From positions 9,560 to 73,559 of the forward strand of contig CAZYDX010000001.1 in assembly GCA_964646455.1 (NCBI GenBank): a DNA stretch of 64,000 bases, in the 5' to 3' direction. The notes beneath the pieces are model-generated. The model was not told the DNA's origin. It was given only the letters and a program-made list of their open reading frames with translations, and ran no database searches. Each line of letters starts with the position of its first letter. Position 1 is the stretch's first letter. The stretch comes from an uncultured bacterium (GTDB lineage: Bacteria; Fidelibacterota; Marinisomatia; Marinisomatales; UBA1611). This document shows positions 15,741 to 32,867 of this stretch, one piece after another. The position numbers and the translations under genes are program-made.

Positions 15741-16721
15741 ATGAGAAAAATATTTGTTACAGGTGGAGCAGGTTACGTTGGAGCTGTTTTAGTTCCACGC
15801 TTACTTGATGAAGGTTATGAAGTAACGGTGCTTGATCTTATGATTTATGGACAAAATGTTTTACCAAATCATTCAAATTTAAATGCTATTAAAGGGGATA
15901 TTAGGAATTTGGATCTTTTGGATGAAATAGTTCCAGGTCATGATACAATTATACATTTAGCCTGTATATCAAATGATCCTAGTTTTGAATTGAATTCGGA
16001 TTTAGGTAAATCTATTAATTTGGACGCTTTTCGTCCTTTTGTTGAAATATCAAAAAAACGAAATGTTAGTCGTTTTATTTATGCATCTTCTTCAAGTGTC
16101 TATGGTATCAAAAAAGAAACTGATGTTCATGAAGGAATAATTTTAGAACCGCTTACAGATTATTCGCGTTTCAAGGCAGAATGTGAAAAAATTCTGTTAG
16201 AATATCAGTCTGATAGTTTTACAACAGTAACTATTCGACCTGCAACAGTATGCGGATATTCTCCTAGGCAGCGTTTAGATGTGGTTGTTAATATACTTAC
16301 AAACTTAGCATTTCATAAACGTGAAATTTCAGTTTTTGGTGGTAAACAACTGCGCCCCAATATACATATTCTAGATATGGTAGAAGCCTATATGACGCTT
16401 CTAAATTCCCCAAAGGAAAAGATAGCTGGAAAGATATTCAATGCTGGGTATGAAAATCAATCAGTTATGGAATTAGCTGAAACAGTTAAATCTGTAGTTG
16501 GTAGGGATGTCAAATTGGTACATACTCCCTCTGATGATAACAGATCTTATCATATTTCATCTGAAAAGATTAAGAAAGAGCTTGGCTTTGTTCCAAGTCA
16601 TACCATACGTGAAGCAGTTGAAGACCTTTGTAATGCATTCTCAAAAGGACTATTACCTGATTCACTTGAAAATGAAATGTATTTTAATATAAATAGAATG
16701 CAAAATTTGGAACTTAATTAA
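15741..16721 (+). CDS. NAD-dependent epimerase/dehydratase (extended SDR)
   Basis: 'IFVTGGAGYVGAVLV', 'ASSSSVYG', YxxxK in 'YSRFKAECE'. Confidence 0.8.
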   Translation: MRKIFVTGGAGYVGAVLVPRLLDEGYEVTVLDLMIYGQNVLPNHSNLNAIKGDIRNLDLLDEIVPGHDTIIHLACISNDPSFELNSDLGKSINLDAFRPFVEISKKRNVSRFIYASSSSVYGIKKETDVHEGIILEPLTDYSRFKAECEKILLEYQSDSFTTVTIRPATVCGYSPRQRLDVVVNILTNLAFHKREISVFGGKQLRPNIHILDMVEAYMTLLNSPKEKIAGKIFNAGYENQSVMELAETVKSVVGRDVKLVHTPSDDNRSYHISSEKIKKELGFVPSHTIREAVEDLCNAFSKGLLPDSLENEMYFNINRMQNLELN

Positions 16722-16723
16722 TA

Positions 16724-17824
16724 ATGAAAGTTAGATATTCATATCTACCACAGCAATTTAATGACTGTGAAGATTTATGGCAGGATTTACGAAAATTTGT
16801 TCCTACTGGAGATTTTACATTAGGGAAACCACTGAAAAAATTTGAGCACAGTTTTGCAGAATTAATTGGAGCAAAATATGCCATAGGTGTGAACTCTGGA
16901 ACTGATGCAATAAAAATAACTCTTAAAGCTTTGGGTATTGGTCCTGGTGATGAGGTTATAACTGCTGCTAATACTTTCGTAGCTACCGTTGGTGCCATTT
17001 GTGAATTGGGTGCTATTCCTGTTTTTGTAGATTGTGATGATACGTTTTGTATGGATGTAGATAATATTGAACATAAAATCACTGATAAAACTAAAGCCCT
17101 ATTACCGGTTCATTTTACTGGATATATGACTGATATGCGTAAAATCACAAAAATTGCAGATCAATATAAATTATTTGTTGTAGAGGATGCTTGCCAATCA
17201 ATTCTTGGATCTATTGATGGTAAAAAAGCTGGCAATTGGGGTTGTCCCGCAGCATTTTCTTTACATCCATTAAAAAATATTAATGTTTGGTCAGATGGAG
17301 GCGTGATTGTAACGGACGATGCTGACTTAAATAATAAATTGAGACTAATGCGAAATCATGGTTTAGAGGATAGAGATACGGTGTCTATTATGGGTTATAA
17401 TTCTCGTTTAGATACAATACAAGCTGTAGTAGGAAACTGGATTTTACCAAAGGCAAAATCAATCTCTGAGAAACGAATATCCAATGCTAATTACCTTGAC
17501 AATGGTCTTTCAAAAGTCAATCAGATCTCAATTCCTCCAAGGCCCAACGGATATCGGTTGGTTTACCACCTTTATATTATATTTGCAAAAGATAGAGATG
17601 GGCTATTAGAATATTGTATCGAAAGAGGAATTGAGGCAAAAATTCATTACCCTATTCCTATTTATCGACAACCTGCATTAAAATACCTTGGATATAGACA
17701 AGGTGATTTCCCAATTGCTGATTCTCACACCTCTAAAATTATTACATTCCCTTGCGATCAACACCTTGAGCAGTCCCAATTAGATTATATTATTAATACA
17801 GTAAGCGAATATTATGGCAGATAA
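16724..17824 (+). CDS. DegT-family PLP sugar aminotransferase
   Basis: 'GVNSGTDAIKITLKALG', 'VVEDACQSILG', 'AFSLHPLKNINVWSDGGVIVT', 'GYNSRLDTIQAVVG'. Confidence 0.85.
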   Translation: MKVRYSYLPQQFNDCEDLWQDLRKFVPTGDFTLGKPLKKFEHSFAELIGAKYAIGVNSGTDAIKITLKALGIGPGDEVITAANTFVATVGAICELGAIPVFVDCDDTFCMDVDNIEHKITDKTKALLPVHFTGYMTDMRKITKIADQYKLFVVEDACQSILGSIDGKKAGNWGCPAAFSLHPLKNINVWSDGGVIVTDDADLNNKLRLMRNHGLEDRDTVSIMGYNSRLDTIQAVVGNWILPKAKSISEKRISNANYLDNGLSKVNQISIPPRPNGYRLVYHLYIIFAKDRDGLLEYCIERGIEAKIHYPIPIYRQPALKYLGYRQGDFPIADSHTSKIITFPCDQHLEQSQLDYIINTVSEYYGR

Positions 17825-18926
17825 TAATATAATAATACCTTATGTAGACCTTTCTGCGCAATGGAGAGATGACCGTTCAGAACTACTACCTATAATTGAT
17901 AATTTACTGAGCAGCGGACATTATGTAGGCGGAGAAGAAATTGAGCACTTTGAAATTCAGATTGCCAAATTATGTCAGGTTAAATATGCTGTAGCTCTAA
18001 ATAGTGGTACAGACGCCCTAACTTTGTCTCTTCATTTATTAGGCGTAAACAAAGGAGATGAAGTTATAACTCCGCCTAATTCATTCATTGCTTCTACAGC
18101 AGTTATTGAGCATCTGGGAGCAGTACCTGTCTTTGTAGATGTTTTATCAGACCAAAACATTGACACAGAAATGATTGAATCTTCTATAACTAATAATACA
18201 AAAGCAATTATGCCAGTCCATTTAACAGGTAGGATGTGTGATATGGATAGAATTACTAATCTAGCAAATAATTACGGTTTAAAGATTATTGAAGATGCAG
18301 CACAAGCTATTGGCTCAAAGTATAGAGGAAAACCTAGCGGTTCTATAGGGCATGTCGGTTGTTTTTCAGCGCACCCTCTAAAAAATTTAAATGCATGTGG
18401 TGATGGTGGATTTATTACTACGAATGATTCTAATTTGTATGAAAGAGCTAAAGCGCTACGAAGTCATGGTATTATTGATCGTGATAGGGTAGATAGTTTT
18501 GGATATGTTTCTAGGATGGATAATCTTCAGGCAGCAATTTTAAGTTATAGATTAGATAAATTAGATAAAATCATTGAAAAAAGAAGAAAAAATGCTCAAT
18601 ATTATTTAGATAATATTGATAGTAATAAAGTAATTCTTCCTGTTGAGAAAGAATATGAATTCAATTCTTACCATACATTTGTTATACAAGTGGAAAAAAG
18701 AAATGAATTAAAAGATTTTTTACTTGAAAAAGGGATTGAAACTGCAATACACTATCCAACGCCCATTCATTTACAGCCGGCTGCAAAAGAATTAGGTTAC
18801 ACAATAGGGGATTTTCCCGTAACTGAAGCACAAGCTAATACGATATTGACCTTACCAGTGAATCAAAATTTAAGCCAAATCGAAATAGAGGCAATAAGCG
18901 CCGCAGTAAATAGTTTTTACATTTGA
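17814..18926 (+). CDS. DegT-family PLP sugar aminotransferase (tandem paralogue of 16724..17824)
   Basis: 'ALNSGTDALTLSLHLLG', 'IIEDAAQAIGS', 'CFSAHPLKNLNACGDGGFITT', 'SRMDNLQAAILS'. Confidence 0.85.
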   Translation: MADNNIIIPYVDLSAQWRDDRSELLPIIDNLLSSGHYVGGEEIEHFEIQIAKLCQVKYAVALNSGTDALTLSLHLLGVNKGDEVITPPNSFIASTAVIEHLGAVPVFVDVLSDQNIDTEMIESSITNNTKAIMPVHLTGRMCDMDRITNLANNYGLKIIEDAAQAIGSKYRGKPSGSIGHVGCFSAHPLKNLNACGDGGFITTNDSNLYERAKALRSHGIIDRDRVDSFGYVSRMDNLQAAILSYRLDKLDKIIEKRRKNAQYYLDNIDSNKVILPVEKEYEFNSYHTFVIQVEKRNELKDFLLEKGIETAIHYPTPIHLQPAAKELGYTIGDFPVTEAQANTILTLPVNQNLSQIEIEAISAAVNSFYI

Positions 18927-21362: not shown

Positions 21363-21367
21363 TAAAT

Positions 21368-22282: not shown

Positions 22283-22315
22283 CAAATAAATAAAATAGAA
22301 ATAGGAAAATAAACT

Positions 22316-22981
22316 ATGGGTAAACTTGTAAATTATGTTACACCTTTACATATAGCTACTAGTCGAGCTTATATCGACCGTATGGTAGATGAAAAGGTTG
22401 AATGTATGTTAAAGGCTAAAGAGTATGAAGAAGATTATTGGGACGGAGATCGCCGTTATGGTTATGGCGGATATAAATATATTCCTGGCAGGTGGAAGCC
22501 AGTTGCAGAGGCATTAATAAAGAATTATAATCTTACAAATGAATCTAGTGTTTTGGATATAGGCTGCGGAAAAGGATATCTTTTGTACGAAATGAAATTA
22601 TTACTCCCAGATTTGATAATTGCAGGTTTTGATAGTTCAAATCATGGACTTGCCAATGCAAAAGAAGAAATCAAAGAATTTTTATTTTCTCATAAAGCCC
22701 AAGAAAAGTACCCTTATAAAGAAGACGAATTTGATTTAGTTATATCATTGGGGTGTATACATAATTTGAGGATATTTGAAATTGAGAAAGCATTAAATGA
22801 AATTGAAAGGGTAGGTAAACAAGGATATATAATGATGGAGAGCTATCGCAATGAACAAGAACAATTTAATCTTCAATGTTGGGCGCTTACGTGCGAATCT
22901 TTTTTTGATTATAAGGAATGGCCATGGATATATGACCACTTTGGCTATACTGGCGATTATGAATTTATTTATTTTGAGTAA
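22316..22981 (+). CDS. class I SAM-dependent methyltransferase
   Basis: Motif I 'VLDIGCGKGYLLYE'; 'FDLVISLGCIHNL'. Confidence 0.75.
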   Translation: MGKLVNYVTPLHIATSRAYIDRMVDEKVECMLKAKEYEEDYWDGDRRYGYGGYKYIPGRWKPVAEALIKNYNLTNESSVLDIGCGKGYLLYEMKLLLPDLIIAGFDSSNHGLANAKEEIKEFLFSHKAQEKYPYKEDEFDLVISLGCIHNLRIFEIEKALNEIERVGKQGYIMMESYRNEQEQFNLQCWALTCESFFDYKEWPWIYDHFGYTGDYEFIYFE

Positions 22982-22987
22982 TTAATA

Positions 22988-24019: not shown

Positions 24020-24027
24020 ATGAAGAA

Positions 24028-25368
24028 ATGGGAAATTCAAAATTATTAAAAACATTTTTAAACATGCCTGAATTACCAATAGTAAGAAAAGGTGATGGCA
24101 TTTATCTTTATATGAAAGATGGAAAAAAAATTCTTGATACTACTGGAGGGTTTACGGCACATGCTATTTTGGGTTGGTCACAACCCACTGTAATAGATGC
24201 GATTATTAAACAGGCAAGGAAAATCACCCATATTGATTACAAGACCTTTTCCGATATAAACAGGGAGAAATTGGCTAGTTTACTACTATCTAGAGCTGAA
24301 CATGATCTTGACAGAGTTTATTTTGTTGGTAGTTCCGGAGGAGAAGCCTGTGAGGCGGCCATGAAATTAAGTTATCAGGCCCATTATGACACTGGTAAAA
24401 AGGAAAAGACTTGGTTTATTTCTAGGGAGCAGTCTTATCATGGCTCTTCCACGGACGCATTAGCTGTAGGTCATCGGCCAAACCTTGACTTTTACAAACC
24501 TCTTTTACCAAATAAAAGGGCAAAAATATCCGAACACAATATGTACCGGGATAAAAATGATAATGAAACAATGGATGAATATTCTCACCGAAGTGCGAAA
24601 CAATTAGAAGACAAGATTCTTGAAATTGGTCCGGAAAAAGTATGCGCATTTATTGCAGAAACAATCATGGGGGGTCTTGTTGGTGATGTTCCTCCTGCGC
24701 CAAATTATTGGAAATATGTTAATAGTATTTGTAAAAAATATGATGTGCATTTGATTCTTGATGAAGTTTGGTGTGGTACAGGAACTAGTGGTAAAATTTA
24801 TTGTGTTGATTGGGATAATATTACACCAGATTTTATATTTATTGGTAAAACACTGGGGGCTGGTTTTGCGCCATTAAGTGCTTTGGTTACAAGTAGCAAA
24901 ATTGAAGAGAAAATTAGAAATGGACAAGGTCAGATACAGCATTCAACTACTCACCAAGGGCACTCGCTCTGTGTTGCAGCGGCCTTAGCTGTGCAAAAAA
25001 TTATACACAATGATAGTTTTCTTGAAGAAATAAATACTAAAGGTGAAATATTAAGGAATACATTAGAAAATGAACTAGGAAATCATCCTTTTTATTCAAA
25101 TGTCAGAGGAAGAGGTTTGAGGAATTCTCTTGAATATCAATGTGAGGATCAACATTTATTTGGAAATGCTCTTGCCCAAGAAATGAAAGAAAATTTTGGT
25201 ATATTAATCAGCGGGAAATGGCATAGAGTCTGTTTTTCACCAGCTCTAACAATAACAATGGATGAATTAGATTTTGTTTTAAATTCATTTATTGAGACTT
25301 TTAATAATGTTGCATCGAAATGGGATAAAAAGTATAGATCTAAAATTGATATAAAGCCAATCTTTTAA
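24028..25368 (+). CDS. class-III (omega-type) PLP aminotransferase
   Basis: 'SGGEACEAAMKLS', 'LILDEVWCGTGTSGK', PLP-lysine block 'IGKTLGAGFAPLSA'. Confidence 0.8.
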   Translation: MGNSKLLKTFLNMPELPIVRKGDGIYLYMKDGKKILDTTGGFTAHAILGWSQPTVIDAIIKQARKITHIDYKTFSDINREKLASLLLSRAEHDLDRVYFVGSSGGEACEAAMKLSYQAHYDTGKKEKTWFISREQSYHGSSTDALAVGHRPNLDFYKPLLPNKRAKISEHNMYRDKNDNETMDEYSHRSAKQLEDKILEIGPEKVCAFIAETIMGGLVGDVPPAPNYWKYVNSICKKYDVHLILDEVWCGTGTSGKIYCVDWDNITPDFIFIGKTLGAGFAPLSALVTSSKIEEKIRNGQGQIQHSTTHQGHSLCVAAALAVQKIIHNDSFLEEINTKGEILRNTLENELGNHPFYSNVRGRGLRNSLEYQCEDQHLFGNALAQEMKENFGILISGKWHRVCFSPALTITMDELDFVLNSFIETFNNVASKWDKKYRSKIDIKPIF

Positions 25369-25387
25369 TAAATCAAAAATTGAAGCA

Positions 25388-25879
25388 ATGGATTTAAGTT
25401 ATAAAATAAACCTTAAGGATTCAAAATCCATCATCTTAGATGATTCAGGTAAATCTATTGCATGTTTTACCGTCAATGATATTGTTGCAATAGATAATAG
25501 TGTTATCGATCAATTAATTGGATTATCAGAGGAATTGGGTAAAAAAGACATTCGTATATGCTTACATCAAAATAACGAAAGTAAATTGCACAATATGATA
25601 AATCTTATTTACAAGAAAAAAATAAATGTTCCTCATAAGCATCTAGATAAATCAGAAAGCTATCATATAATTAGGGGGCAAATGATTATAAGTATATATG
25701 ATAATGAGGCTAATATAAAAGATAAATATTTTCTTGACGAAAATGATACTTTCTTATTTAGAGTTGGGAAAGATAATTTTCATACTACTGTTCCTGTTTC
25801 GGACTATGTTATTGTTCATGAAACTCGTTCAGGTCCTTTTAACAAAAATGGTGATAGTATATTTTTCAACAAAAAATAA
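25388..25879 (+). CDS. small cupin-fold protein, WbuC-like
   Basis: 163 aa. 'IRICLHQNNESKLHNMINLI...VPHKHLDKSESYHIIRGQMII' resembles the WbuC-family cupins found in O-antigen loci. This is recalled, not searched. Confidence 0.45.
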   Translation: MDLSYKINLKDSKSIILDDSGKSIACFTVNDIVAIDNSVIDQLIGLSEELGKKDIRICLHQNNESKLHNMINLIYKKKINVPHKHLDKSESYHIIRGQMIISIYDNEANIKDKYFLDENDTFLFRVGKDNFHTTVPVSDYVIVHETRSGPFNKNGDSIFFNKK

Positions 25880-25894
25880 TTTATTTGAATTAAT

Positions 25895-26458
25895 ATGAAT
25901 ATTGGCGAATCTTATTACACTGAACAAGAATTGAATTCATTTGGTTTTTTAAAGATTGGAAAAAATGTTCTTATTAAAAAGAATGCAACTATTATCTATT
26001 CTGAAAATATTTCTATTGGTGATAATGTAAGGATTGATGATTTTTGTTTTATTATAGCTAAAAATAAATTAAAAATTGGTTCTTATTGTCATATTTCATC
26101 ACATTGTGTAATTAGAGCTGATGAAAAAATATCAATTGGGAATTTTGTACAAATTTCGAATAATGTTATAATCTTAACTGTTACTGATGATTTCTCAGGT
26201 GAGTTTCTAGGAGGTCCAATGGTGCCTAATAAATATACTAAAGTATCAGGTGGAAGTATAATTTTAGAGGATCATGTGCTTTTGGGCGCGGGAAGCGTTG
26301 TTTTGCCAAACTGCACTCTATTAGAAGGTGCTGCTGTAGGTGCTAATTCATTAGTAGATAGAGATTTAGATGAATGGATTATTTATTTTGGCAATCCTGT
26401 AAGAGCAGTTAAAAAAAGAAAAAAAGACAGAAAAGAGCTTGGACTAAAATTAATCTAA
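25895..26458 (+). CDS. hexapeptide-repeat (left-handed beta-helix) acyl/acetyltransferase
   Basis: Repeated [LIV]-G-x4 hexapeptides: 'IGDNVRIDDFCFI', 'IGSYCHISSHCVI', 'IGNFVQISNNVII', 'LLGAGSVVLPNCTLLEGAAVGANSLV'. Confidence 0.75.
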   Translation: MNIGESYYTEQELNSFGFLKIGKNVLIKKNATIIYSENISIGDNVRIDDFCFIIAKNKLKIGSYCHISSHCVIRADEKISIGNFVQISNNVIILTVTDDFSGEFLGGPMVPNKYTKVSGGSIILEDHVLLGAGSVVLPNCTLLEGAAVGANSLVDRDLDEWIIYFGNPVRAVKKRKKDRKELGLKLI

Positions 26459-26482
26459 TTTATTATTACTTCTCATTAAGTA

Positions 26483-26899
26483 TTGAATAAAGAATTTATT
26501 AAATCAGTTAATTTCCATCACTATGGATTGGCTCTTAAAAGTTTCAGGAGTGCAGTAAAATTCCATAGTAATTTGGGATACATTATTTCTGAAATTATTT
26601 ATGATGATATCCAAAATGTAGAATTAATCCTTTGTACATCTAACAACTTTCCCACAGTTGAACTTGTAAAACCATATGATGACAAGAGTCCAATAAATAA
26701 TTATTTAAAAAAAAATAATGAAATAATTTATCATATTTGTTATGAAGTAGATGATATTGATAATGATTTAAAGTTATTATTTAAAAATAATCGTTCAATA
26801 TGCGTAAGCAAACCAAAGCCTGCTAAATTATTTAATAATCGATTAGTTTCATTCTATTACATAAATGATATCGGATTAATAGAATTACTCCAAAAATGA
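26483..26899 (+). CDS. VOC/glyoxalase-fold protein (methylmalonyl-CoA epimerase-like)
   Basis: 'FHHYGLALKSF' and 'HICYEVDDI' match the paired metal-ligand blocks of VOC enzymes. TTG start at 26483 verified in the sequence. Confidence 0.6.
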   Translation: MNKEFIKSVNFHHYGLALKSFRSAVKFHSNLGYIISEIIYDDIQNVELILCTSNNFPTVELVKPYDDKSPINNYLKKNNEIIYHICYEVDDIDNDLKLLFKNNRSICVSKPKPAKLFNNRLVSFYYINDIGLIELLQK

Positions 26900-28641
26900 T
26901 TAAAGAAGATATAAAGTACAGTGAAATATTAAGGGAGAATAGTGAATTAGCTAAGGTGCTTCCAGATAAAAGTTATGAGATAAAAATATTATCAAATATT
27001 ATTACTTCTCAAGTAAATGAAATTTTAGAATATACATTGAGATTAGAATCAATACCTGCAATAGTAAAATCTGGTAACTATGATAATATAGTTCAAGATA
27101 GTTCTGTTTATAATAATTCAGATTTATGCATAATATTTTGGGAATTATGTAATATTATTAATGGATTTCAGTATAAAATAGAACTCTTAACTAATAGAGA
27201 GTTGGAAGATCTTAAAATAAAGATGAAGACTGAGATTGATCTTGTAATTCGTAATTTACAAAAGGCCTCTCTTGTTATTTTTAATCAGTTTTCATCATTA
27301 GCATTTTCAACAAATAGTATAATTAGCAATAATTATAAAAGTTTTTCAGATGAATTAAATCAATATTTAAAAGATCGAATAACTGATAATATACGTATAG
27401 TAGAAATAGATAATGTATTAGCAAATATTGGTTTGCAAAAATGTTTGGATGAGAGGAATTATTATTCTTCTAAAGCATTATATACAGTTGAATTTTTCAG
27501 ATCCTATACTGAATATGTTAAGCCTTATATAATGTCTGCCAATGGCAAAGCAAAGAAGATTTTAATTTTTGATTGTGATAATACATTATGGAAGGGTGTG
27601 CTTGGTGAAGATGGTATTGATAATATTGAAATGTCATCTGATACAAATAATGGATGTATATTTTCTGAGATTCAGGATATTGCACTGGCTTTAAATAGAC
27701 AAGGTGTACTAATTGGCTTGTGTAGTAAGAATAATATAGATGATATAGACGAAGTTATTGGTTCTCACCCAAATATGAAAATCAAAGATGAAAACATCTC
27801 TATAAAGAAATGTAACTGGTCAGATAAAGTTTCTAATCTCAGAGAGATTGCTGAAGAATTAAATATTGGTTTAGATAGTATTCTTTTTATAGATGATTCG
27901 TCTTTTGAAATAAACTTTGTAAATGAACAATTGCCAGAAATTACTACTTTGCAAGTTCCTGAAAGAATATATAATTATCCAAGATTATTGCGGGAAAATA
28001 TTAGACATTTTTATAATTTATCATCCACTGATGAAGATAGGAAAAAGAATTCAATTTATAGGCAACAATCAAAAAGGAAGAATGATCAAAAGAGATTTTC
28101 AAATATTGAAGATTATCTAGTTTCCTTAAATATAGAAGTAAAAATGTATGAAAATATAGAAACTATAATTCCGCGAGTATCACAGATGAGTCTTAAAACA
28201 AACCAATTCAACCTTACAACAAATAGATATACTGAAAATGATATTAAAAAATTTAATATGGATAAAAGAATCAGAATTTATGCTTTTTCAGTCACTGACA
28301 AGTTTGGTGATAGTGGAATAACAGGATTATCAATAATAAAACTTATAACTGAAACTAAAACGGCAGAAATTGATACTTTTCTTATGAGCTGTAGAATTAT
28401 TGGTAGGAATATAGAATATGCATTCATTAACAATATTATAACGAGAATAAAAAAAGAAAAGTTTAGTTATGTAAAAGCAAATTATATAAAAACAAATAAA
28501 AATGATCAGGTGAAAAATTTCTATGACTCTTGTTCTTTTAAAAACATTGAATCTAATAAACTAAATAAAAAATATATTTTAGATTTAAGCAAATATGAAC
28601 CAAAACTAATAAACTATATCAGGATTGAAAATGCCAAATAA
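26896..28641 (+). CDS. FkbH-like HAD-superfamily (subfamily IIIC) phosphatase/acyl-loading enzyme with a C-terminal GNAT-like region
   Basis: Diagnostic 'KKILIFDCDNTLWKGVLGEDGIDNIEM', 'LIGLCSKNN', 'ILFIDDSSFE'; C-terminal 'LMSCRIIGRNIEYAFIN'. Confidence 0.7.
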   Translation: MIKEDIKYSEILRENSELAKVLPDKSYEIKILSNIITSQVNEILEYTLRLESIPAIVKSGNYDNIVQDSSVYNNSDLCIIFWELCNIINGFQYKIELLTNRELEDLKIKMKTEIDLVIRNLQKASLVIFNQFSSLAFSTNSIISNNYKSFSDELNQYLKDRITDNIRIVEIDNVLANIGLQKCLDERNYYSSKALYTVEFFRSYTEYVKPYIMSANGKAKKILIFDCDNTLWKGVLGEDGIDNIEMSSDTNNGCIFSEIQDIALALNRQGVLIGLCSKNNIDDIDEVIGSHPNMKIKDENISIKKCNWSDKVSNLREIAEELNIGLDSILFIDDSSFEINFVNEQLPEITTLQVPERIYNYPRLLRENIRHFYNLSSTDEDRKKNSIYRQQSKRKNDQKRFSNIEDYLVSLNIEVKMYENIETIIPRVSQMSLKTNQFNLTTNRYTENDIKKFNMDKRIRIYAFSVTDKFGDSGITGLSIIKLITETKTAEIDTFLMSCRIIGRNIEYAFINNIITRIKKEKFSYVKANYIKTNKNDQVKNFYDSCSFKNIESNKLNKKYILDLSKYEPKLINYIRIENAK

Positions 28642-28876
28642 TTTAGAAAATAGTTTGAAAGAAATAATGTCTGCAGTATTTACAGTAGATAAAAATGAAT
28701 TAGATCATAATTCTTCGCCTGAAGATATTTCATCATGGGATTCACTTAAACATCTTAATCTTGTTGCTGCGATAGAGACTGAGTTAAATATAGATTTATC
28801 TGATGATGAGATTGTATGTTTGACGGATTTTCACAATATTCTTTTAATTATAGAAAAAAAATATAAAGATAAGTAA
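28625..28876 (+). CDS. acyl/peptidyl carrier protein
   Basis: About 80 aa with the phosphopantetheine-attachment motif 'SSWDSLKHLNLVAAIE' (DSL). TTG at 28625, with ATG 28631 as an alternative start. It overlaps the end of the FkbH-like gene. Confidence 0.7.
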   Translation: MKMPNNLENSLKEIMSAVFTVDKNELDHNSSPEDISSWDSLKHLNLVAAIETELNIDLSDDEIVCLTDFHNILLIIEKKYKDK

Positions 28877-28977
28877 ATAATTTATTCCTAAAAATTTATA
28901 CTAACTTTCACTCAAGTTTATCTAATTAAGTCTATTATTGAATATTATTTTAAGTTCAAAACAATCTATGATTTCAA

Positions 28978-30513
28978 GTGAATGATCCTTTATTAAAATC
29001 TGAGTATTTATATAATTTAAAAAGAACATCTACTATAAAATTTTCAGATATATCTAAACCGAATATGGTATGTTTGATAGTTGCAAATGGAGGACCAACA
29101 AAACTGCTACAAAGTTATTTGGATGGACATCCACAATTATACAATATACCTTGTTATCCAATGATATATTATTACCCACATTGGGAAACATGGGAAATAA
29201 ATGAATCTTCAAATTGGACTTGGGAAAAAATTATTGATTTATTTTGCAATAAACACTCATCTCTTTTGGATTCGCGAAATATAGGAGGTTTAAATGGTTT
29301 AGATCGGTTAGGTGATAATAAAAACGAACATATAGAGATCAGTGAAAAATTATTCCGCTTTTATTTAAAAGAAATGTTAAAAGAAGAGCCAATTAAAAGA
29401 CGGACCTTTCTTTTAGCGGTATATTATGTTTATGCCATATGTAAGGGACAAGATTTATCTAATAAAACTACATTATTATGGCCGCATCATGTTTATGAAT
29501 ATCTAGATATTTACTTTTCTGACTTTCCTGACTCTATATTAATTGGTTCAATTCGAGATTCTAGACCCAAAATTTATCGTAACTATGAATTGAACACTAA
29601 AACTGATCAATATAAGCTAAATCCTACTGATCAAATGATATATCGTTCGCACATTTATTATCATGTAGTAAAAAATATGTTTTATTCCCATCACAAACTG
29701 AAAAATTATGTTAATCCATCTAGAGCTTATTTCCTTAAGCATGAAGAATTAGCGATGGACCAAAAGAAAACTATGCAGAACTTTTGCAGAATTATTCATA
29801 TTGATTTCTTGAATCTTTTATTAGATAGCACATTTGATGGAAAGTTATGGTGGGGGCATAGAATTTATGATATGCCCATTTCTAATGAAAACATGAAACC
29901 TAAAGAAAGAGTCAACTTGATTTCGAAAATGGCATTGGAAAGAGTATTATTAACAGATTGGAATCAATATTCCTCATTAGAAATATTTGTAATTGAAGGA
30001 ATTGCTTATGATTTTTTCACTAAGTATAATTACGATTTATTATATTATAAAAAAGATACATTTATTTACCGCTTTATATTATTCTTAATAATTTTATTAC
30101 CACAAAGTTTTGAATTAAGAGATTTTATATACTATTGGTCACCTATAAATCATAAAAATTTCCTTGTGTTAGCTTTTAAAGAATGTAGAGGGATTATACC
30201 TTTAAAAGATTATTCAAAAAATGCATCCTATATTTATAAACGTAATTATAAAGACTTCAAATTGTGGGAAAAGAGTTATTCATACCGTCTTTTTGAAAAA
30301 ACAAAGAATTTTAATTATGGAAGTAAATATTGGTTCATAATTGCAACGATCCAGAATTTTGGTGCAGTAATATATATATTAGGAAAATATTTTCATTTTT
30401 TAATATCAGCTTTTTTATTACCGGTCCAATATTGCAAACGTGTTTTATTGCATTTCTCAGGTTTATGGAAGAGATTATTTAACAAAACCTTTTGGGTTCA
30501 AGAATTAACTTAA
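28978..30513 (+). CDS. membrane-anchored protein with a divergent sulfotransferase-like N-terminal domain
   Basis: 'LIVANGGPTKLL' and 'IGSIRDSRPKIYRNY' loosely fit the PAPS 5'-PSB and 3'-PB blocks. The C-terminal third is hydrophobic ('FIYRFILFLIILLP', 'WFIIATIQNFGAVIYILGKYFHFLISAFLLP'). GTG start. Confidence 0.35.
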   Translation: MNDPLLKSEYLYNLKRTSTIKFSDISKPNMVCLIVANGGPTKLLQSYLDGHPQLYNIPCYPMIYYYPHWETWEINESSNWTWEKIIDLFCNKHSSLLDSRNIGGLNGLDRLGDNKNEHIEISEKLFRFYLKEMLKEEPIKRRTFLLAVYYVYAICKGQDLSNKTTLLWPHHVYEYLDIYFSDFPDSILIGSIRDSRPKIYRNYELNTKTDQYKLNPTDQMIYRSHIYYHVVKNMFYSHHKLKNYVNPSRAYFLKHEELAMDQKKTMQNFCRIIHIDFLNLLLDSTFDGKLWWGHRIYDMPISNENMKPKERVNLISKMALERVLLTDWNQYSSLEIFVIEGIAYDFFTKYNYDLLYYKKDTFIYRFILFLIILLPQSFELRDFIYYWSPINHKNFLVLAFKECRGIIPLKDYSKNASYIYKRNYKDFKLWEKSYSYRLFEKTKNFNYGSKYWFIIATIQNFGAVIYILGKYFHFLISAFLLPVQYCKRVLLHFSGLWKRLFNKTFWVQELT

Positions 30514-30573
30514 TAAATATTTAGATTTATTTGTTTATAACAGACTGTATTGTGATTATTATTAAGGTAAAAA

Positions 30574-32745
30574 ATGAAAAATATTAAAATTCTATCTACT
30601 CTAGGACCAAGTTCTTTGGATAAAAAAGTAATTCGACGATTAACTGAATTAGGAGTTGATATGTTTCGTTTAAATTTATCTCATATAACCATAGATCAAC
30701 TTGAAAGTAATATTAATATTATTAGAGATTATAGTAATGTTCCCATTTGTTTGGATACGGAAGGTGCTCAGGTGAGAACTGGAGTTGTAAAGGGTGGGAA
30801 AATATTTGTTAAAGAAGGAGAAATAATAGAACTCATTTCATATGAATTATCTGATAATAAAAACTTATTTTATTTTACACCACTTCATATTATGGATAGG
30901 TTAAGTTTAGGCGATTTAATTAGTATCGATTATGATTCATGCTTGATTCAGGTTATAGATAAAACTAGTTCAGGTATAAAAGTAATGGTGCTAAGTGAAG
31001 GAGAAATTCATAGTAATAAAGCAGTATCTATTCTTCAAAAAAATCCTGAGCTTGAACCTCTTACCGCAAAAGATCTTGAAGCAATTATGATTGGTAAAAA
31101 ATTAAAAATTAATAATGTCGCTTTATCATTTGCTAATAGTGGTAAAGATGTAAAACTGTTGCGGGAGTTGTGTTCTAAAGATTGTTCGATTATTTCTAAA
31201 ATTGAGACTACAAAAGCTATAGATAATTTGAATGAAATAATTCGATTGTCTGATGCCATTTTAATTGATCGTGGAGATTTATCAAAAGAAGAATTGATAG
31301 AAGAAATACCATTTTTACAAAAATTTATAATTAATAAAGCAAATGAAATGAATAAAGAAGTTTATGTCGCCACAAATTTATTGGAATCAATGATAAGACA
31401 TAAAAGCCCTACTCGTGCTGAGGTTAACGATGTAATAAACACGTTAATTGATGGTGCAGATGGATTAGTTTTAGCTGCAGAAACAGCAATTGGTGATTAT
31501 CCAATTGAAAGCGTAGGGTATATCAAAAATCTAATAAGTACATACAATATGAAGATGCATAATGAAGGTAATGTCTATAATAATATAGAAAGTACATTTA
31601 TCAATTTTCCTCATGGAGGAAAATTGATACAGCAGATCAAAATTCGAGATAAATTAGAATATGAGCATGAACTTCTAGTAGATGAACAAACATTATTAGA
31701 TGTTGAACAAATTGCAAATGGTGGTTATTCTCCTCTAACTGGCTTTATGGATGAAAAGAATCTGAAAAGTGTCTTAAATGAATATTATCTAACAAGCGGG
31801 GAAGTTTGGACAATGCCAGTAATTTTACAGGTTTGTAAGGGACAAATAAACAATTTTGTTATGGGAGATAGAATTGCATTATTATCTAAATATGATAATA
31901 AAATTTATGGAATATTGGAATTATCTGATGTTTATAAAATAAACTCAAAGGAAATATCATTAAAATTATTTAATACTAATGATGCTAAGCATCCAGGTGT
32001 AAATAATCTAAAGAATAAAGGAAATTATTGTTTGGGTGGTACTATTGAGTCTGTTCGAAAATTAAAAAATCCATATAAAAGATTCATTTTTACTCCAGAA
32101 GAAACACGTTTTATCTTTGATAAAAGAGGCTGGAAAAAAATTATTGGATTTCATACTCGCAATGTTATCCATAAAGCACATGAATATATACAGATTAAGG
32201 CTTTGTCAGAATCATTTGCTGATGGTTTATTTATCCATCCGCTTATAGGACCGAAGAAAAAATTAGATTTTTCTTCAAATATTATATTAAAAAGTTACCA
32301 AATGATGATCGATAATTATTACCCAAAAGGGAAAATTCTTTTGGGTGGTTTTCCATCATATCCAAGGTATGCAGCTGCACGTGAGGCTGTTTTTACTGCA
32401 ATTTGTAGACAAAACTATGGCTGTAGTCATTTTATTATTGGAAGAGATCATTCAGGTGTTGGAAAATATAGTAAGTCAACAGAGGCAAAAGATCTATTTG
32501 AATTTTTGAAAAGTGGTTTAAATATTGAACCTATTTACTTTGATAAAGTATCTTATTGTAAAAAATGTAAGGACTATGTTGAAGATTGCAACCATACTAA
32601 ACATGATTTTAAATCAATTAGCGCTAGTTATGTTCGTAAGGTTTTTCAAGATGGAGAGATGCCTGAAGGTTGGCTTATAAGAGAAGAAATTAGCGAAATG
32701 ATTAATGCATCAATCAAAAACAAGGAAGATGTATTTTACAAATAA
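30574..32745 (+). CDS. fusion protein: pyruvate-kinase A/B domains (no PK_C domain) + Sat-type ATP sulfurylase
   Basis: PK blocks: 'ILSTLGPSS', 'MFRLNLSH', 'CLDTEGAQVRTG', 'SKIET', 'IDRGDLSKE', 'TNLLESMIRHKSPTRAEVNDVINTLIDGADGLVLAAETAIGDYP'. ATPS blocks: 'PHGGKLI', 'GGYSPLTGFM', 'WTMPVIL', 'GFHTRNVIHKAHEYI', 'IHPLIGPKKKLDF', 'GCSHFIIGRDHSGVG'. It is a single uninterrupted ORF. Confidence 0.85.
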   Translation: MKNIKILSTLGPSSLDKKVIRRLTELGVDMFRLNLSHITIDQLESNINIIRDYSNVPICLDTEGAQVRTGVVKGGKIFVKEGEIIELISYELSDNKNLFYFTPLHIMDRLSLGDLISIDYDSCLIQVIDKTSSGIKVMVLSEGEIHSNKAVSILQKNPELEPLTAKDLEAIMIGKKLKINNVALSFANSGKDVKLLRELCSKDCSIISKIETTKAIDNLNEIIRLSDAILIDRGDLSKEELIEEIPFLQKFIINKANEMNKEVYVATNLLESMIRHKSPTRAEVNDVINTLIDGADGLVLAAETAIGDYPIESVGYIKNLISTYNMKMHNEGNVYNNIESTFINFPHGGKLIQQIKIRDKLEYEHELLVDEQTLLDVEQIANGGYSPLTGFMDEKNLKSVLNEYYLTSGEVWTMPVILQVCKGQINNFVMGDRIALLSKYDNKIYGILELSDVYKINSKEISLKLFNTNDAKHPGVNNLKNKGNYCLGGTIESVRKLKNPYKRFIFTPEETRFIFDKRGWKKIIGFHTRNVIHKAHEYIQIKALSESFADGLFIHPLIGPKKKLDFSSNIILKSYQMMIDNYYPKGKILLGGFPSYPRYAAAREAVFTAICRQNYGCSHFIIGRDHSGVGKYSKSTEAKDLFEFLKSGLNIEPIYFDKVSYCKKCKDYVEDCNHTKHDFKSISASYVRKVFQDGEMPEGWLIREEISEMINASIKNKEDVFYK

Positions 32746-32867
32746 CATCATTATATAAGGTTAGTTGAATCCTTTAAATATTTATCATTTAATTTTCAAA
32801 TCGCAAATAATATATCTCCTTCTTTTTGCAATAAAATAAATAAACTTCTTACTTAATGTTTAATTGA

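What the first reader, a model, noticed from the sequence alone, without database searches (positions are those of the whole stretch)
25388..28876. WbuC-like cupin / hexapeptide acyltransferase / VOC / FkbH / ACP: a carrier-protein-based acyl-donor cassette in a glycan locus
The FkbH-like enzyme has the diagnostic 'FDCDNTLWKGVLGEDG' HAD-IIIC motif. The 83-aa carrier protein has a 'DSL' phosphopantetheine site, and the two genes overlap. In polyketide systems FkbH loads a glyceryl unit from 1,3-bisphosphoglycerate onto an ACP. Here there is no ketosynthase, AT or other PKS domain in the window. The pair is instead preceded by a left-handed beta-helix acyltransferase, a methylmalonyl-CoA-epimerase-like VOC protein and a WbuC-type cupin of unknown function. 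That points to a glyceryl-ACP (or related hydroxyacyl-ACP) used to N- or O-acylate an amino sugar. The five DegT aminotransferases would supply the amines. Enzymology for ACP-dependent glycan acylation of this type is essentially undescribed.
Basis: partly seen in the sequence, partly recalled or inferred. Interest (0 to 1): 0.6.

Follow-up and report, generated by a model that had tools for sequence, protein, structure and literature searches.

The report
Glycerate-loading carrier-protein module for sugar acylation
A capsule-type sugar gene island from an uncultured bacterium carries a small enzyme set (FkbH-like loader, carrier protein, glyoxalase-fold enzyme, AntD-like transferase) that most likely makes a three-carbon hydroxy-acid and attaches it to an amino sugar, a widespread but biochemically untested route that could explain the 'glyceroyl' sugar decorations whose genes have not been found.

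Summary
Five co-directional genes lie at 25388-28876: a WbuC cupin, an LbH acyltransferase, a VOC protein, an FkbH-domain protein and an ACP. The FkbH and ACP genes overlap.

Across 74 genome loci from many phyla, the FkbH-like gene has the ACP next to it in 59-69. One of two tailoring genes precedes it, and no locus has both: a MaoC-dehydratase/SDR fusion (44 loci) or the VOC (14, including this window; P=5e-7). WbuC co-occurs in only 3 of 74 loci and looks like a sugar-side enzyme.

The window's LbH is a close relative of AntD (E 8e-49), which N-acylates dTDP-4-amino-4,6-dideoxyglucose with a hydroxyacyl group. In the closest VOC-type relative, VOC-FkbH-ACP abuts an LbH, a dehydratase, an FdtA cupin and a DegT.

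No KS, AT or PKS domain is recorded in the window, or in the 8 kb upstream and 6 kb downstream that were examined.

Best reading: the module makes glyceryl-ACP, the VOC modifies it at C2, and the LbH transfers it to an NDP-amino sugar. All enzymology is inferred.

Precedents are partial: the C. jejuni cj1302 annotation, N-glyceroyl nonulosonic acids whose genes were still called 'elusive' in 2018, and FkbH loading modules in PKS/NRPS. Verdict: a new variant of a known kind, of moderate to high interest.

The parts
26896..28641 (+). FkbH-like loader, 581 aa, three domains. The N-terminal alpha/beta domain (about residues 1-215) has no known function. The HAD-IIIC phosphatase domain carries D226-C-D228-N-T230, S277, K311 and D333/D334. 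The C-terminal domain has a GNAT-like fold and an invariant C499 in the motif MSCRIIGRN.
   Evidence: TIGR01686 268.5 bits and TIGR01681 57.7 bits. PDB 3slr (BF1531) E 5e-34. In the fold search, 3slr is the top hit and GNAT folds match the C-terminus (model pLDDT only 66). The residues listed are at least 97% conserved in 73 homologs, down to 26% identity.
28631..28876 (+). Dedicated acyl carrier protein: 81 aa from ATG 28631, or 83 aa from TTG 28625. The phosphopantetheine serine is S40 (nt 28742-28744) in the motif W-D-S-L.
   Evidence: Sub-threshold ACP models. W38/D39/S40 are at least 90% conserved in 62 orthologs. An ortholog lies directly after FkbH in 59 loci, and an ACP homolog is found in 69 of 74 loci. 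The spacing is 20 nt or less in 58 of 59 loci and overlapping in 42.
26483..26899 (+). VOC (glyoxalase I / methylmalonyl-CoA epimerase fold) metalloenzyme. Proposed tailoring enzyme acting at C2 of the ACP-bound 2-hydroxyacyl thioester.
   Evidence: Glyoxalase_4 E 1.2e-14. PDB glyoxalase I entries 3hdp and 2qh0 at E 2e-21; methylmalonyl-CoA epimerases at E 2e-6 or weaker. The H12/H13, E60, H84 and E134 ligand set is conserved in 14 orthologs. It occupies position -1 in 14 loci, and no locus has both it and the MaoC-SDR fusion. It is 66% identical to the Armatimonadota ortholog.
25895..26458 (+). AntD-like left-handed beta-helix sugar N-acyltransferase. Proposed to transfer the acyl group to an NDP-4-amino-4,6-dideoxy sugar.
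   Evidence: PDB 3vbi-3vbp at E 8e-49, 169 bits, aligned over residues 5-182. 3vbn is AntD of B. cereus, which binds CoA and dTDP (PMC6031040). It is the only transferase candidate next to the pair in the window.
25388..25879 (+). WbuC-family cupin. Probably a sugar-nucleotide-side enzyme (isomerase or epimerase type), not part of the acyl-donor unit.
   Evidence: TIGR04366 93 bits. No PDB sequence match. It co-occurs with FkbH in 3 of 74 loci, there between two sugar C-methyltransferases next to a DegT. An FdtA cupin holds the analogous place in L086, but similarity to it is only at the level of the cupin core.
15741..18926 (+). Candidate acceptor pathway: an SDR 4,6-dehydratase/epimerase-like gene (15741-16721) and two PseC/WecE-like DegT 4-aminotransferases (16724-17824, 17814-18926). 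GmhA-like (15152) and HldE-like (12543) genes lie upstream.
   Evidence: NCBIfam hits, all below the equivalog cutoffs; Pfam. The link to the cassette is inferred from proximity only.
28978..30513 (+). Sulfotransferase-family protein with two C-terminal hydrophobic segments. A possible, unproven extension of the cassette, acting either on the glyceroyl group or on the glycan.
   Evidence: The window protein alone scores 23.1 bits on Sulfotransfer_3, below the cutoff. Of 40 relatives, 36 hit Sulfotransfer_3. The family profile hits TPST1 at 5e-15, CurM ST at 6e-13 and 4gox at 9e-12. Hydrophobic segments lie at about residues 362-384 and 463-483. It is not found near FkbH in the 74 other loci.
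30574..32745 (+). Fusion of a pyruvate-kinase barrel, a PUA_2 domain and ATP sulfurylase. Provides sulfate activation for the island's sulfotransferases.
   Evidence: PK E 7e-70, PUA_2 E 2e-37, ATP-sulfurylase E 8e-70; NCBIfam.

Best explanation
The unit is a free-standing glycerate-loading module built into a Wza/Wzc/Wzy-type surface-polysaccharide island.

Step 1 (inferred from family membership and conserved residues). The FkbH-like protein takes the acyl-phosphate 1,3-bisphosphoglycerate. It forms a thioester on its conserved cysteine (C499), removes the 3-phosphate with its HAD-IIIC domain, and passes D-glyceryl to the phosphopantetheine arm of the ACP, whose gene overlaps its own and is probably translationally coupled to it.

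Step 2 (inferred; the least certain step). The VOC enzyme is a glyoxalase I / methylmalonyl-CoA-epimerase-fold metalloenzyme with a complete His/Glu/His/Glu ligand set. It abstracts the C2 proton of the ACP-bound 2-hydroxyacyl thioester. The most likely result is epimerisation to L-glyceryl-ACP. The alternative is loss of the 3-OH to give pyruvoyl-ACP. In most other loci a MaoC-dehydratase/FabG-like SDR fusion occupies the same position. By analogy with the DH-KR proteins of FR901464 and lankacidin, that fusion would turn glyceryl-ACP into lactyl-ACP.

Step 3 (inferred from homology and context). The AntD-like LbH transfers the C3 hydroxyacyl group to the amino group of an NDP-4-amino-4,6-dideoxy sugar. 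That sugar would be made by the neighbouring SDR, the DegT aminotransferases and the WbuC cupin. The island's glycosyltransferases, Wzy and the exporter then build it into the polymer.
For: - FkbH domain above the trusted cutoff, with the HAD motifs and C499 conserved in 73 homologs. The C-terminus has a GNAT-like fold.
- The OzmB mechanism, 1,3-BPG to phosphoglyceryl-S-enzyme to glyceryl-S-enzyme to glyceryl-ACP, is established (PMC9057759).
- An ACP gene directly follows FkbH in 59 loci, and an ACP homolog is found in 69 of 74 loci. Spacing is 20 nt or less in 58 of 59. The ACP serine is conserved.
- No locus has both the VOC and the MaoC-SDR: 0 of 75, where 8.2 would be expected (P=4.7e-7).
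- DH-KR proteins convert glyceryl-S-ACP to lactyl-S-ACP (PMC4765723).
- The VOC metal ligands are conserved, and its closest solved relatives are glyoxalase I, whose product is a 2-hydroxyacyl thioester.
- The LbH matches AntD at E 8e-49 over its full length (PMC6031040).
- Of 57 loci with at least 4 genes on each side, 40 have an acyltransferase within 4 genes and 35 have a DegT.
- L086 has VOC-FkbH-ACP-LbH-dehydratase-FdtA-DegT in a row. The cultured Aliarcobacter skirrowii has DegT-MT-MaoC/SDR-FkbH-ACP-Hexapep in a Wzx-containing locus.
- N-glyceroyl amino sugars exist in nature with no gene assigned (PMC5378307, PMC6120980).
Against: - No biochemical data exist for any member of this 580-aa glycan-locus subfamily.
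- The subfamily has an extra 215-aa N-terminal domain that characterised FkbH proteins lack (OzmB is 366 aa), so substrate or partner could differ.
- I could not align C499 to the catalytic cysteine of OzmB.
- AntD uses a CoA thioester, not an ACP, so the LbH might work independently of the ACP.
- The window's LbH is not orthologous to the LbHs of other FkbH loci (27% identity to that of L086).
- The VOC's reaction is a guess from fold precedent.
- The acceptor sugar is inferred from proximity only.
- The structural model has low confidence (pLDDT 66).
- The exclusivity statistic is not corrected for shared ancestry.
Confidence: 0.55

Rival explanations
1. The FkbH-ACP-VOC trio makes an acyl-ACP, but the neighbouring LbH does not use it. 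The LbH would be an ordinary CoA-dependent N-acyltransferase like AntD. The acyl-ACP would go elsewhere: to O-acylation of the polymer, or to a transferase encoded further away.
For: AntD binds CoA (PMC6031040). The LbH partner is not conserved: its best score against the LbHs of the other loci is 67 bits, and it is 27% identical to the LbH of L086. Other loci place GNAT, AAC(3)-like, WcbI-like or unknown proteins beside the pair.
Against: The LbH is the only transferase candidate near the pair in the window. An acyltransferase within 4 genes of the pair is the rule (40 of 57 loci). LbH enzymes that take acyl-ACP exist (LpxA and LpxD, which appear as weak hits). A changing transferase fits changing acceptor sugars.
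Confidence: 0.2
2. The 580-aa FkbH-like subfamily loads a unit other than glycerate. Candidates are the unhydrolysed 3-phosphoglyceryl group or another acyl-phosphate. Alternatively its HAD domain acts on a sugar phosphate and something else charges the ACP.
For: The extra N-terminal domain of unknown function is conserved across the subfamily. Identity to PKS-context FkbH proteins is low (26-28% to the Ralstonia and Streptomyces copies). AMP-ligases lie beside the pair in about 10 loci.
Against: The score is well above the FkbH trusted cutoff. The HAD catalytic residues and the C-terminal Cys are intact and invariant. There is no AMP-ligase in the window. In the papers I read, every FkbH enzyme or domain with an assigned or proposed substrate handles glycerate (PMC9057759, PMC4765723, PMC8609519).
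Confidence: 0.15
3. The pair belongs to a lipid or polyketide pathway. It would supply a starter unit for a ketosynthase that builds a lipid anchor or a longer hydroxy-fatty acyl chain, with the partner encoded outside the window.
For: Seven of 57 related loci have FabH within 4 genes, some with extra SDRs and a second ACP. A Ralstonia megaplasmid homolog sits in a PKS-like set.
Against: No KS, AT, FabH or PKS family appears in the window or in the 8 kb and 6 kb flanks examined. The window is wholly a glycan island. Most related loci lack any ketosynthase.
Confidence: 0.05

Closest known systems
FkbH / OzmB glyceryl-ACP loading in methoxymalonyl-ACP and tetronate pathways (PKS)
   Same: An FkbH domain (HAD-IIIC plus a Cys-bearing C-terminal domain) with a discrete ACP encoded beside it. 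The predicted chemistry is the same: 1,3-BPG to glyceryl-S-enzyme to glyceryl-ACP (PMC9057759).
   Different: No FkbI, FkbK or FkbG homologs and no PKS in the window. The protein is 581 aa, with an extra 215-aa N-terminal domain, against 366 aa for OzmB. The context is a sugar-nucleotide and capsule island. The product is proposed to end as an amide on a sugar, not as a polyketide extender.
DH*-KR*-FkbH-ACP lactate starter modules (FR901464, lankacidin) and OMT-FkbH-PCP-ST loading modules (suomilide, varlaxin, dysinosin aeruginosins)
   Same: FkbH plus a carrier, with on-carrier tailoring of the glyceryl unit. Dehydration and reduction give lactyl (PMC4765723). O-methylation and sulfation give 2-O-methylglyceric acid 3-O-sulfate (PMC8609519, PMC10143770). 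Most related glycan loci carry a MaoC-SDR fusion and a methyltransferase in the same logic. The window has a sulfotransferase-family gene and an ATP sulfurylase right after the ACP.
   Different: Here the parts are separate small proteins, not domains of a megasynthase. The window uses a VOC enzyme in place of DH-KR, for which I found no precedent. The sulfotransferase-family gene here is predicted to be membrane-anchored and is not conserved with the module.
AntD of the Bacillus anthrose pathway (LbH N-acyltransferase; Kubiak and Holden 2012)
   Same: The window's LbH aligns with AntD over its whole length (E 8e-49). AntD N-acylates a dTDP-4-amino-4,6-dideoxy sugar with a short hydroxyacyl group (3-hydroxy-3-methylbutyryl; PMC6031040, PMC8141488).
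   Different: AntD's donor is a CoA thioester made by an enoyl-CoA hydratase route. Here the neighbouring donor machinery is FkbH-ACP-VOC.
[quoted passage not shown]
   Same: A glycan locus with an FkbH-domain gene, cj1302 (PMC7099621), and a glyceroyl-type amide on an amino sugar (PMC3068675). In five related loci an AAC(3)-like gene and a DUF4910/DUF2172 'aminopeptidase-like' gene follow FkbH-ACP. This resembles Cj1296/7 (N-acetyltransferase) and Cj1295 (435 aa, aminopeptidase-like, required for the modification).
   Different: Orthology was not tested, because C. jejuni sequences could not be reached. The window lacks the methyltransferase, the AAC(3)-like gene and the DUF4910 gene. The cassette lies 13 kb or more from the window's NeuB genes.
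Neisseria meningitidis PglB2 (makes glyceramido-acetamido-trideoxyhexose)
   Same: It installs an N-glyceroyl group on a 2,4-diamino-2,4,6-trideoxyhexose (PMC10425976), the same kind of product as proposed here.
   Different: PglB2 is a variant of the bifunctional PglB, with no FkbH or ACP involved. It is a different route to a similar decoration.
LpxA / LpxD (own knowledge)
   Same: LbH-fold enzymes that transfer hydroxyacyl groups from acyl-ACP to UDP-sugars. They show that an LbH plus an ACP donor is workable chemistry.
   Different: They use long-chain 3-hydroxyacyl groups from the housekeeping ACP in lipid A synthesis. They are only distantly related to this LbH (about 30-45 bits).

Membership tests
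FkbH family (TIGR01686) | HMM score above the curated cutoff | tested here: met
   268.5 bits against 146.65, residues 219-549
FkbH family (TIGR01686) | HAD-IIIC phosphatase core: DxDxT nucleophile motif, Ser/Thr motif II, Lys motif III, acidic motif IV | tested here: met
   D226-C-D228-N-T230, S277, K311 and D334 are at least 97% conserved in 73 homologs. TIGR01681 57.7 bits against 35.75. PDB 3slr phosphatase domain E 5e-34.
FkbH family (TIGR01686) | C-terminal transferase domain with the cysteine that carries the glyceryl thioester | tested here: inconclusive
   C499 (S-C-R motif) is present in 72 of 73 homologs, and the C-terminus matches GNAT folds (low-confidence model). It was not aligned to the OzmB catalytic Cys, because no characterised FkbH sequence was at hand.
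FkbH family (TIGR01686) | Dedicated carrier protein as acceptor | tested here: met
   An ACP gene directly follows in 59 loci and an ACP homolog is found in 69 of 74 loci. Spacing is 20 nt or less in 58 of 59. The genetic link is shown; the loading itself is not.
FkbH family (TIGR01686) | Uses 1,3-bisphosphoglycerate to form glyceryl-S-carrier | not testable with these tools
   Needs an enzyme assay with intact-protein MS.
Methoxymalonyl-ACP pathway (FkbGHIJK / OzmBDEFG) | Acyl-CoA-dehydrogenase-like FkbI, 3-hydroxyacyl-CoA-dehydrogenase FkbK and O-methyltransferase FkbG beside FkbH and the ACP, feeding a PKS | tested here: not met
   None of these families, and no PKS, is recorded in the window. 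An acyl-CoA dehydrogenase occurs only in a distant subgroup of loci (L069-L072, L078).
Acyl carrier protein (PP-binding) | Small acidic protein of about 80 aa with a conserved Asp-Ser-Leu phosphopantetheinylation site | tested here: met
   81-83 aa. W38-D39-S40-L41, with D39 and S40 at least 90% conserved in 62 orthologs.
Acyl carrier protein (PP-binding) | Profile match above threshold | tested here: not met
   No Pfam hit at E<=0.01. Best NCBIfam ACP model 29 bits against a cutoff of 71. Orthologs carry only weak or faint PP-binding hits. It is a divergent ACP.
AntD-type LbH sugar N-acyltransferase | Full-length homology to AntD, including the hexapeptide helix and its inserted loop | tested here: met
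   E 8e-49, 169 bits, residues 5-182 against 19-195 of 3vbi
AntD-type LbH sugar N-acyltransferase | Donor is a hydroxyacyl thioester and acceptor is an NDP-4-amino-4,6-dideoxyhexose | not testable with these tools
   Only context is available: two PseC/WecE-like DegT genes and an SDR lie 7-10 kb upstream.
Methylmalonyl-CoA epimerase (TIGR03081 equivalog) | Score above the equivalog cutoff | tested here: not met
   52.9 bits against 114.95. PDB methylmalonyl-CoA epimerases score only 20-31 bits. It works like a VOC thioester enzyme but is not a methylmalonyl-CoA epimerase ortholog.
VOC superfamily, glyoxalase I-like | Paired beta-alpha-beta-beta-beta modules with a four-residue His/Glu metal site | tested here: met
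   Glyoxalase_4 54.9 bits against 27. 3hdp and 2qh0 at 79 bits. H12/H13, E60, H84 and E134 are conserved in 14 orthologs.
WbuC family cupin (TIGR04366) | Score above the subfamily cutoff | tested here: met
   93 bits against 42. The function of the family is itself unknown.

The most novel reading that the evidence does not exclude
The VOC/MaoC-SDR-FkbH-ACP module could be the missing and very widespread genetic basis for short 2-hydroxyacyl amides on bacterial amino sugars and nonulosonic acids: glyceroyl, O-methylglyceroyl and lactyl. In it, dedicated ACP thioesters, not CoA esters, would be the donors for LbH or GNAT sugar N-acyltransferases. The family has thousands of homologs, and MAG labels suggest some are archaeal.

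In this window the VOC would be a previously unknown glyceryl-ACP C2-epimerase or isomerase. The adjacent sulfotransferase-family protein and the PK-ATP sulfurylase might add a sulfate, giving a sulfo-glyceroyl amide like the Mgs unit of aeruginosins but on a capsule sugar.
Probability: 0.3. Interest if true: 0.75.

Novelty: new variant of a known kind. Interest (0 to 1): 0.55.

Why it matters
N-glyceroyl and related hydroxyacyl groups decorate surface sugars of pathogens: Tannerella forsythia Pse5Am7Gra, Vibrio vulnificus LPS and Campylobacter jejuni flagellin. They shape immune recognition and phage binding. Yet papers from 2017 and 2018 state that the responsible genes are unidentified or 'elusive' (PMC5378307, PMC6120980).

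A compact and easily recognised gene trio would make that question directly testable in vitro, and in cultured carriers such as Aliarcobacter. The trio is a tailoring enzyme, an FkbH-like loader and an ACP. It has thousands of homologs and a consistent glycan context.

It would also show that glycolysis-derived, carrier-protein-tethered acyl units, a logic known from polyketide and nonribosomal peptide assembly lines, are used routinely in polysaccharide tailoring. And it would give the alternative tailoring genes (VOC or MaoC-SDR, with or without a methyltransferase) predictive value for the acyl group a glycan carries.

Tried and rejected
1. **Reaching C. jejuni cj1302 or cj1295 sequences.** I tried to test orthology directly. 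Homolog searches seeded with the Campylobacterota FkbH and the DUF4910 protein returned Aliarcobacter and metagenome hits only. The link therefore rests on published annotation.
2. **Structure of the FkbH-like protein.** The model is mediocre (pLDDT 66, pTM 0.41). It is usable only for fold assignment at the domain level.
3. **WbuC.** There is no PDB sequence relative and only cupin-core similarity to FdtA. Its role remains a contextual guess.
4. **Promoter and terminator scan of 22000-33000.** Promoter-like sites are no more frequent than in shuffled sequence, and there is no + strand terminator before 32371. This is uninformative beyond suggesting co-transcription.
5. **The second aminotransferase-VOC-methyltransferase-SDR set at 50228-53470.** I considered it as a paralogous cassette and rejected that. 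VOC2 is not detectably similar to VOC1, and the other pairs are only distantly related.
6. **The sulfotransferase-family protein as a conserved module member.** Rejected: neither it nor the PK-ATP sulfurylase has a homolog in the 74 other loci. Its predicted membrane anchor fits glycan sulfation better. I keep it only as a low-probability extension.
7. **Plasmid search.** The S. meliloti pSymB record had no annotation. The Ralstonia copy is a multidomain protein in a PKS-type context. The Niveispirillum copy supports the FkbH-ACP-acetyltransferase pattern.
8. **Organism identity.** Only 'Gram-negative-type, Wza/Wzc exporter, about 29% G+C' can be said.

Full report
**What is there**

Five co-directional ORFs fill 25388-28876 with gaps of 15-24 nt or overlaps.

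- 25388-25879 is a WbuC-family cupin (TIGR04366, 93 bits against a cutoff of 42).
- 25895-26458 is a hexapeptide-repeat LbH transferase.
- 26483-26899 is a VOC protein. It hits Glyoxalase_4 at E 1.2e-14. The methylmalonyl-CoA epimerase equivalog scores 52.9 bits, below its 114.95 cutoff.
- 26896-28641 is a 581-aa protein. Residues 219-549 match the FkbH domain model at 268.5 bits (cutoff 146.65), and it also matches the HAD-IIIC model.
- 28625/28631-28876 is a small divergent ACP.

The ACP most likely starts at ATG 28631, behind an AGGA at 28621-28624. That start overlaps the FkbH stop codon by 11 nt.

**The setting**

Exact copies of these proteins lie on several metagenome contigs with the same gene order. 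The 95-kb parent contig is one long + strand glycan island.

- Upstream of the window it has Wza- and Wzc-like exporter genes, a NeuB and a PglD-like LbH.
- Inside the window it has Wzy, glycosyltransferases, five CMP-sugar-synthetase-like genes, two short NeuB genes, five DegT, several SDR dehydratases or epimerases, a GmhA-like and an HldE-like gene, FdtA, a formyltransferase and sulfotransferases.

No ketosynthase, acyltransferase or other PKS/FAS family is recorded for any gene of the window, or for the 8 kb upstream and 6 kb downstream that I could read. Representatives of FabH, AMP-ligase, MaoC-SDR, GNAT and DUF4910 from related loci find nothing in the window. The organism was not identified. 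G+C is about 29%.

**The FkbH-like protein**

It has more than 7,800 relatives in the protein collection, and many are full-length at about 60% identity. A scan of one genome per species returned 74 loci labelled as many bacterial phyla and a few archaeal MAGs. The archaeal labels rest on short contigs and may be binning errors.

In an alignment of 73 full-length homologs, down to 26% identity, these residues are at least 97% conserved:

- the HAD nucleophile motif D226-C-D228-N
- S277, K311 and D334
- a C-terminal S498-C499-R500 motif

The only solved relative is the uncharacterised BF1531 N-terminal fragment from Bacteroides fragilis (3slr, E 5e-34). An AlphaFold model is mediocre (pLDDT 66). 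Its fold search puts 3slr first and then GNAT acetyltransferases for the C-terminal domain.

The protein therefore has three parts: an N-terminal alpha/beta domain of about 215 aa, a HAD-IIIC domain and a GNAT-like domain. Characterised FkbH enzymes such as OzmB are 366 aa and lack the first domain (PMC9057759). OzmB takes 1,3-bisphosphoglycerate, forms a phosphoglyceryl-S-enzyme, removes the phosphate and hands glyceryl to its ACP (PMC9057759). The conserved residues here fit that mechanism. I could not align C499 to the OzmB cysteine, and nothing has been measured.

**What is conserved around it**

I called ORFs in the 74 loci and clustered them.

- An ACP ortholog directly follows the FkbH-like gene in 59 loci, and an ACP homolog is detectable in 69 of 74. 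Most of the exceptions are truncated contigs.
- The two genes are 20 nt or less apart in 58 of 59 cases and overlap in 42.
- The ACP's W-D-S motif is conserved.

Position -1 holds one of two genes:

- A 394-aa fusion of a MaoC hot-dog dehydratase and a FabG-like SDR, in 44 loci.
- The 138-aa VOC, in 14 loci including the window.

No locus has both, where 8.2 would be expected (P=4.7e-7, not corrected for shared ancestry). A 306-aa methyltransferase often sits at -2 with either of them.

Among the 57 loci with at least four genes on each side, 40 have an acyltransferase within four genes and 35 have a DegT. The acyltransferases are LbH, GNAT, AAC(3)-like or an unnamed family. FabH occurs in only 7. 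WbuC occurs in 3 of 74, and there it lies between two sugar C-methyltransferases next to a DegT.

The conserved unit is thus [VOC or MaoC-SDR]-FkbH-ACP, attached to varying transferases and sugar-nucleotide genes.

**Two informative relatives**

- In an Armatimonadota MAG the FkbH is 61% identical and the VOC 66% identical. The gene order is VOC, FkbH, ACP, LbH, a 4,6-dehydratase-like SDR, an FdtA cupin and a DegT. The last four form the standard gene set for an NDP-3-acylamido-3,6-dideoxyhexose, here fused to the acyl module.
- In the cultured Aliarcobacter skirrowii the order is DegT, methyltransferase, MaoC-SDR, FkbH, ACP and Hexapep, inside a locus with a Wzx-type flippase.

**The window's LbH**

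It matches PDB 3vbi-3vbp at E 8e-49 over residues 5-182. Entry 3vbn is AntD of Bacillus cereus, an LbH N-acyltransferase crystallised with CoA and dTDP (PMC6031040). AntD works in D-anthrose synthesis, where the acyl group is 3-hydroxy-3-methylbutyryl (PMC8141488, citing Kubiak and Holden 2012). So the transferase next to the module belongs to a family that puts short hydroxyacyl groups on a 4-amino-4,6-dideoxy sugar nucleotide.

It is not orthologous to the LbHs of other FkbH loci (27% identity to that of L086). That fits a transferase matched to its acceptor sugar.

A candidate acceptor pathway lies 7-10 kb upstream: an SDR and two PseC/WecE-like DegT genes. This link is by proximity only.

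**The VOC**

Its closest solved relatives are two glyoxalase I entries (3hdp and 2qh0, E 2e-21). Methylmalonyl-CoA epimerases are much weaker. The four metal ligands (H12/H13, E60, H84, E134) are conserved in all 14 orthologs.

Both precedent enzymes handle the proton on the carbon next to a thioester. Glyoxalase I's product is itself a 2-hydroxyacyl thioester (established enzymology, own knowledge).

The DH-KR proteins of FR901464 and lankacidin turn glyceryl-S-ACP into lactyl-S-ACP (PMC4765723). The MaoC-SDR fusion looks like the free-standing equivalent. I therefore propose that the VOC is the alternative tailoring step on glyceryl-ACP. C2 epimerisation is the most likely reaction and dehydration to pyruvoyl-ACP the alternative. 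This is the weakest step of the model.

**A possible extension downstream**

The gene after the ACP (28978-30513) scores below threshold on Sulfotransfer_3 by itself. However:

- Thirty-six of 40 relatives hit that family.
- The family profile matches tyrosylprotein sulfotransferase (5e-15), the CurM ST domain (6e-13) and 4gox (9e-12). I recall 4gox as the olefin synthase ST domain.

Next comes a fusion of a pyruvate-kinase barrel, a PUA domain and ATP sulfurylase. Aeruginosin-type loading modules combine OMT, FkbH, a carrier and an ST to make 2-O-methylglyceric acid 3-O-sulfate (PMC8609519, PMC10143770), so a sulfated glyceroyl group is conceivable.

Against this, neither gene accompanies FkbH in the 74 other loci. 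The sulfotransferase-family protein has two C-terminal hydrophobic segments, and the island has another sulfotransferase. Sulfation of the glycan is the more ordinary reading.

**What is known**

Of the 44 papers in the searchable library that mention FkbH, only one concerns a glycan locus. It notes in passing that cj1302, in the C. jejuni flagellin glycosylation locus, has an FkbH domain.

C. jejuni 11168 carries Pse with an N5-(2,3-di-O-methylglyceroyl) group. The modification needs Cj1295, a 435-aa 'aminopeptidase-like' protein, and Cj1296/7 next to it is an N-acetyltransferase (PMC3068675). In five loci here an AAC(3)-like gene and a 433-aa DUF4910/DUF2172 gene directly follow FkbH-ACP. 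Sources name that second family 'aminopeptidase-like protein'. The resemblance is suggestive but was not tested by sequence.

N-glyceroyl nonulosonic acids are also known in Tannerella forsythia and Vibrio vulnificus. Their genes were described as 'yet to be identified' in 2017 and 'elusive' in 2018 (PMC5378307, PMC6120980). The one genetically assigned N-glyceroyl route I found is PglB2 of Neisseria (PMC10425976), which involves neither FkbH nor an ACP. I found no later paper that settles the question. The library omits most subscription journals, so this is not proof of absence.

**Verdict**

The cassette should be redrawn in three parts:

- the acyl-donor module: VOC-FkbH-ACP
- the coupling enzyme: the AntD-like LbH
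- a sugar-side gene: the WbuC cupin

The chemistry of the loader and the carrier is a known kind (FkbH/ACP). What is new:

- its use as a discrete module in glycan loci
- the extra N-terminal domain
- the VOC as a tailoring enzyme that never occurs together with the DH-KR-like fusion
- the implied use of ACP thioesters by sugar N-acyltransferases

All of this is inference from sequence and context. The decisive experiments are simple loading and transfer assays, plus knockouts in cultured carriers.

Noticed in passing
window 30574-32745 (+): A single 723-aa protein fuses a pyruvate-kinase barrel domain (residues 2-314), a PUA_2 domain and an ATP sulfurylase. No APS kinase family is recorded anywhere in the window. 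What the kinase-like half does is unclear; ATP regeneration or a substitute phosphorylation step are possibilities.
   Followed up: no
window 28978-30513 (+): This 511-aa protein scores below threshold for sulfotransferase on its own. It belongs to a family of about 554 representatives, most of which do hit Sulfotransfer_3. The family profile matches TPST and the CurM/olefin-synthase ST domains. The protein has two C-terminal hydrophobic segments, so it is probably membrane-anchored.
   Followed up: partly
window 20511-24019 and 32868-35887; loci L010, L014, L026: A split transketolase (N and C halves), a 221-aa methyltransferase, a Zn-dependent alcohol dehydrogenase, the WbuC cupin, a 417-aa ORF with no family and an ABC exporter recur together near FkbH-ACP in three Omnitrophota loci. 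This may be a second conserved sub-pathway, perhaps adding a two-carbon branch to a keto sugar.
   Followed up: partly
window 50228-53470 (+): A second set of class-III aminotransferase, VOC (PF00903), 221-aa methyltransferase and SDR. It has no FkbH or ACP, and its VOC is not detectably similar to the first.
   Followed up: partly
window 12543-14066 (+): An HldE-like bifunctional protein with its domains in the reverse of the usual order: the adenylyl/cytidylyltransferase is N-terminal and the PfkB kinase C-terminal. It sits next to a GmhA-like isomerase, which suggests an NDP-heptose branch in the island.
   Followed up: no
window 5209-5946, 45765-46472, 49489-50226, 41458-42273, 47817-48668 and flanks: The contig holds many nonulosonic-acid-type genes. 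Five CTP_transf_3 genes are recorded (three in the window, at the first three coordinates given, one just downstream and one further copy). There are two unusually short NeuB genes (271 and 283 aa, no SAF domain) and a third NeuB just upstream of the window.
   Followed up: no
loci L028, L033, L036, L053 (and L012): An AAC(3)-like N-acetyltransferase and a 433-aa DUF4910/DUF2172 'aminopeptidase-like' protein follow FkbH-ACP. This resembles C. jejuni Cj1296/7 and Cj1295, the latter required for di-O-methylglyceroyl-Pse. Sequence orthology could not be tested.
   Followed up: partly
loci L040, L054, L060, L064, L076 (Bacteroidota and relatives): The module is expanded with FabH, a second SDR, an MBL-fold protein, a small extra ORF, an AMP-ligase and a GNAT. 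This suggests that the C3 unit is elongated to a longer hydroxyacyl chain in these organisms.
   Followed up: no
L090 (Niveispirillum plasmid NZ_CP025615) and L089 (Ralstonia megaplasmid CP047137): The Niveispirillum plasmid carries a sulfotransferase, then a HAD-IIIC protein, an ACP, a WcbI-family acetyltransferase and an SDR. The Ralstonia homolog is a 1179-aa multidomain protein in a PKS-like gene set. The family therefore grades into secondary-metabolite contexts at about 26% identity.
   Followed up: partly
window 26896-27540 (FkbH residues 1-215): A conserved N-terminal alpha/beta domain (N34, D63, Q67, N155 nearly invariant; no conserved His). It is shared with B. fragilis BF1531 (3slr) but absent from 366-aa PKS-type FkbH proteins. 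Its function is unknown.
   Followed up: partly
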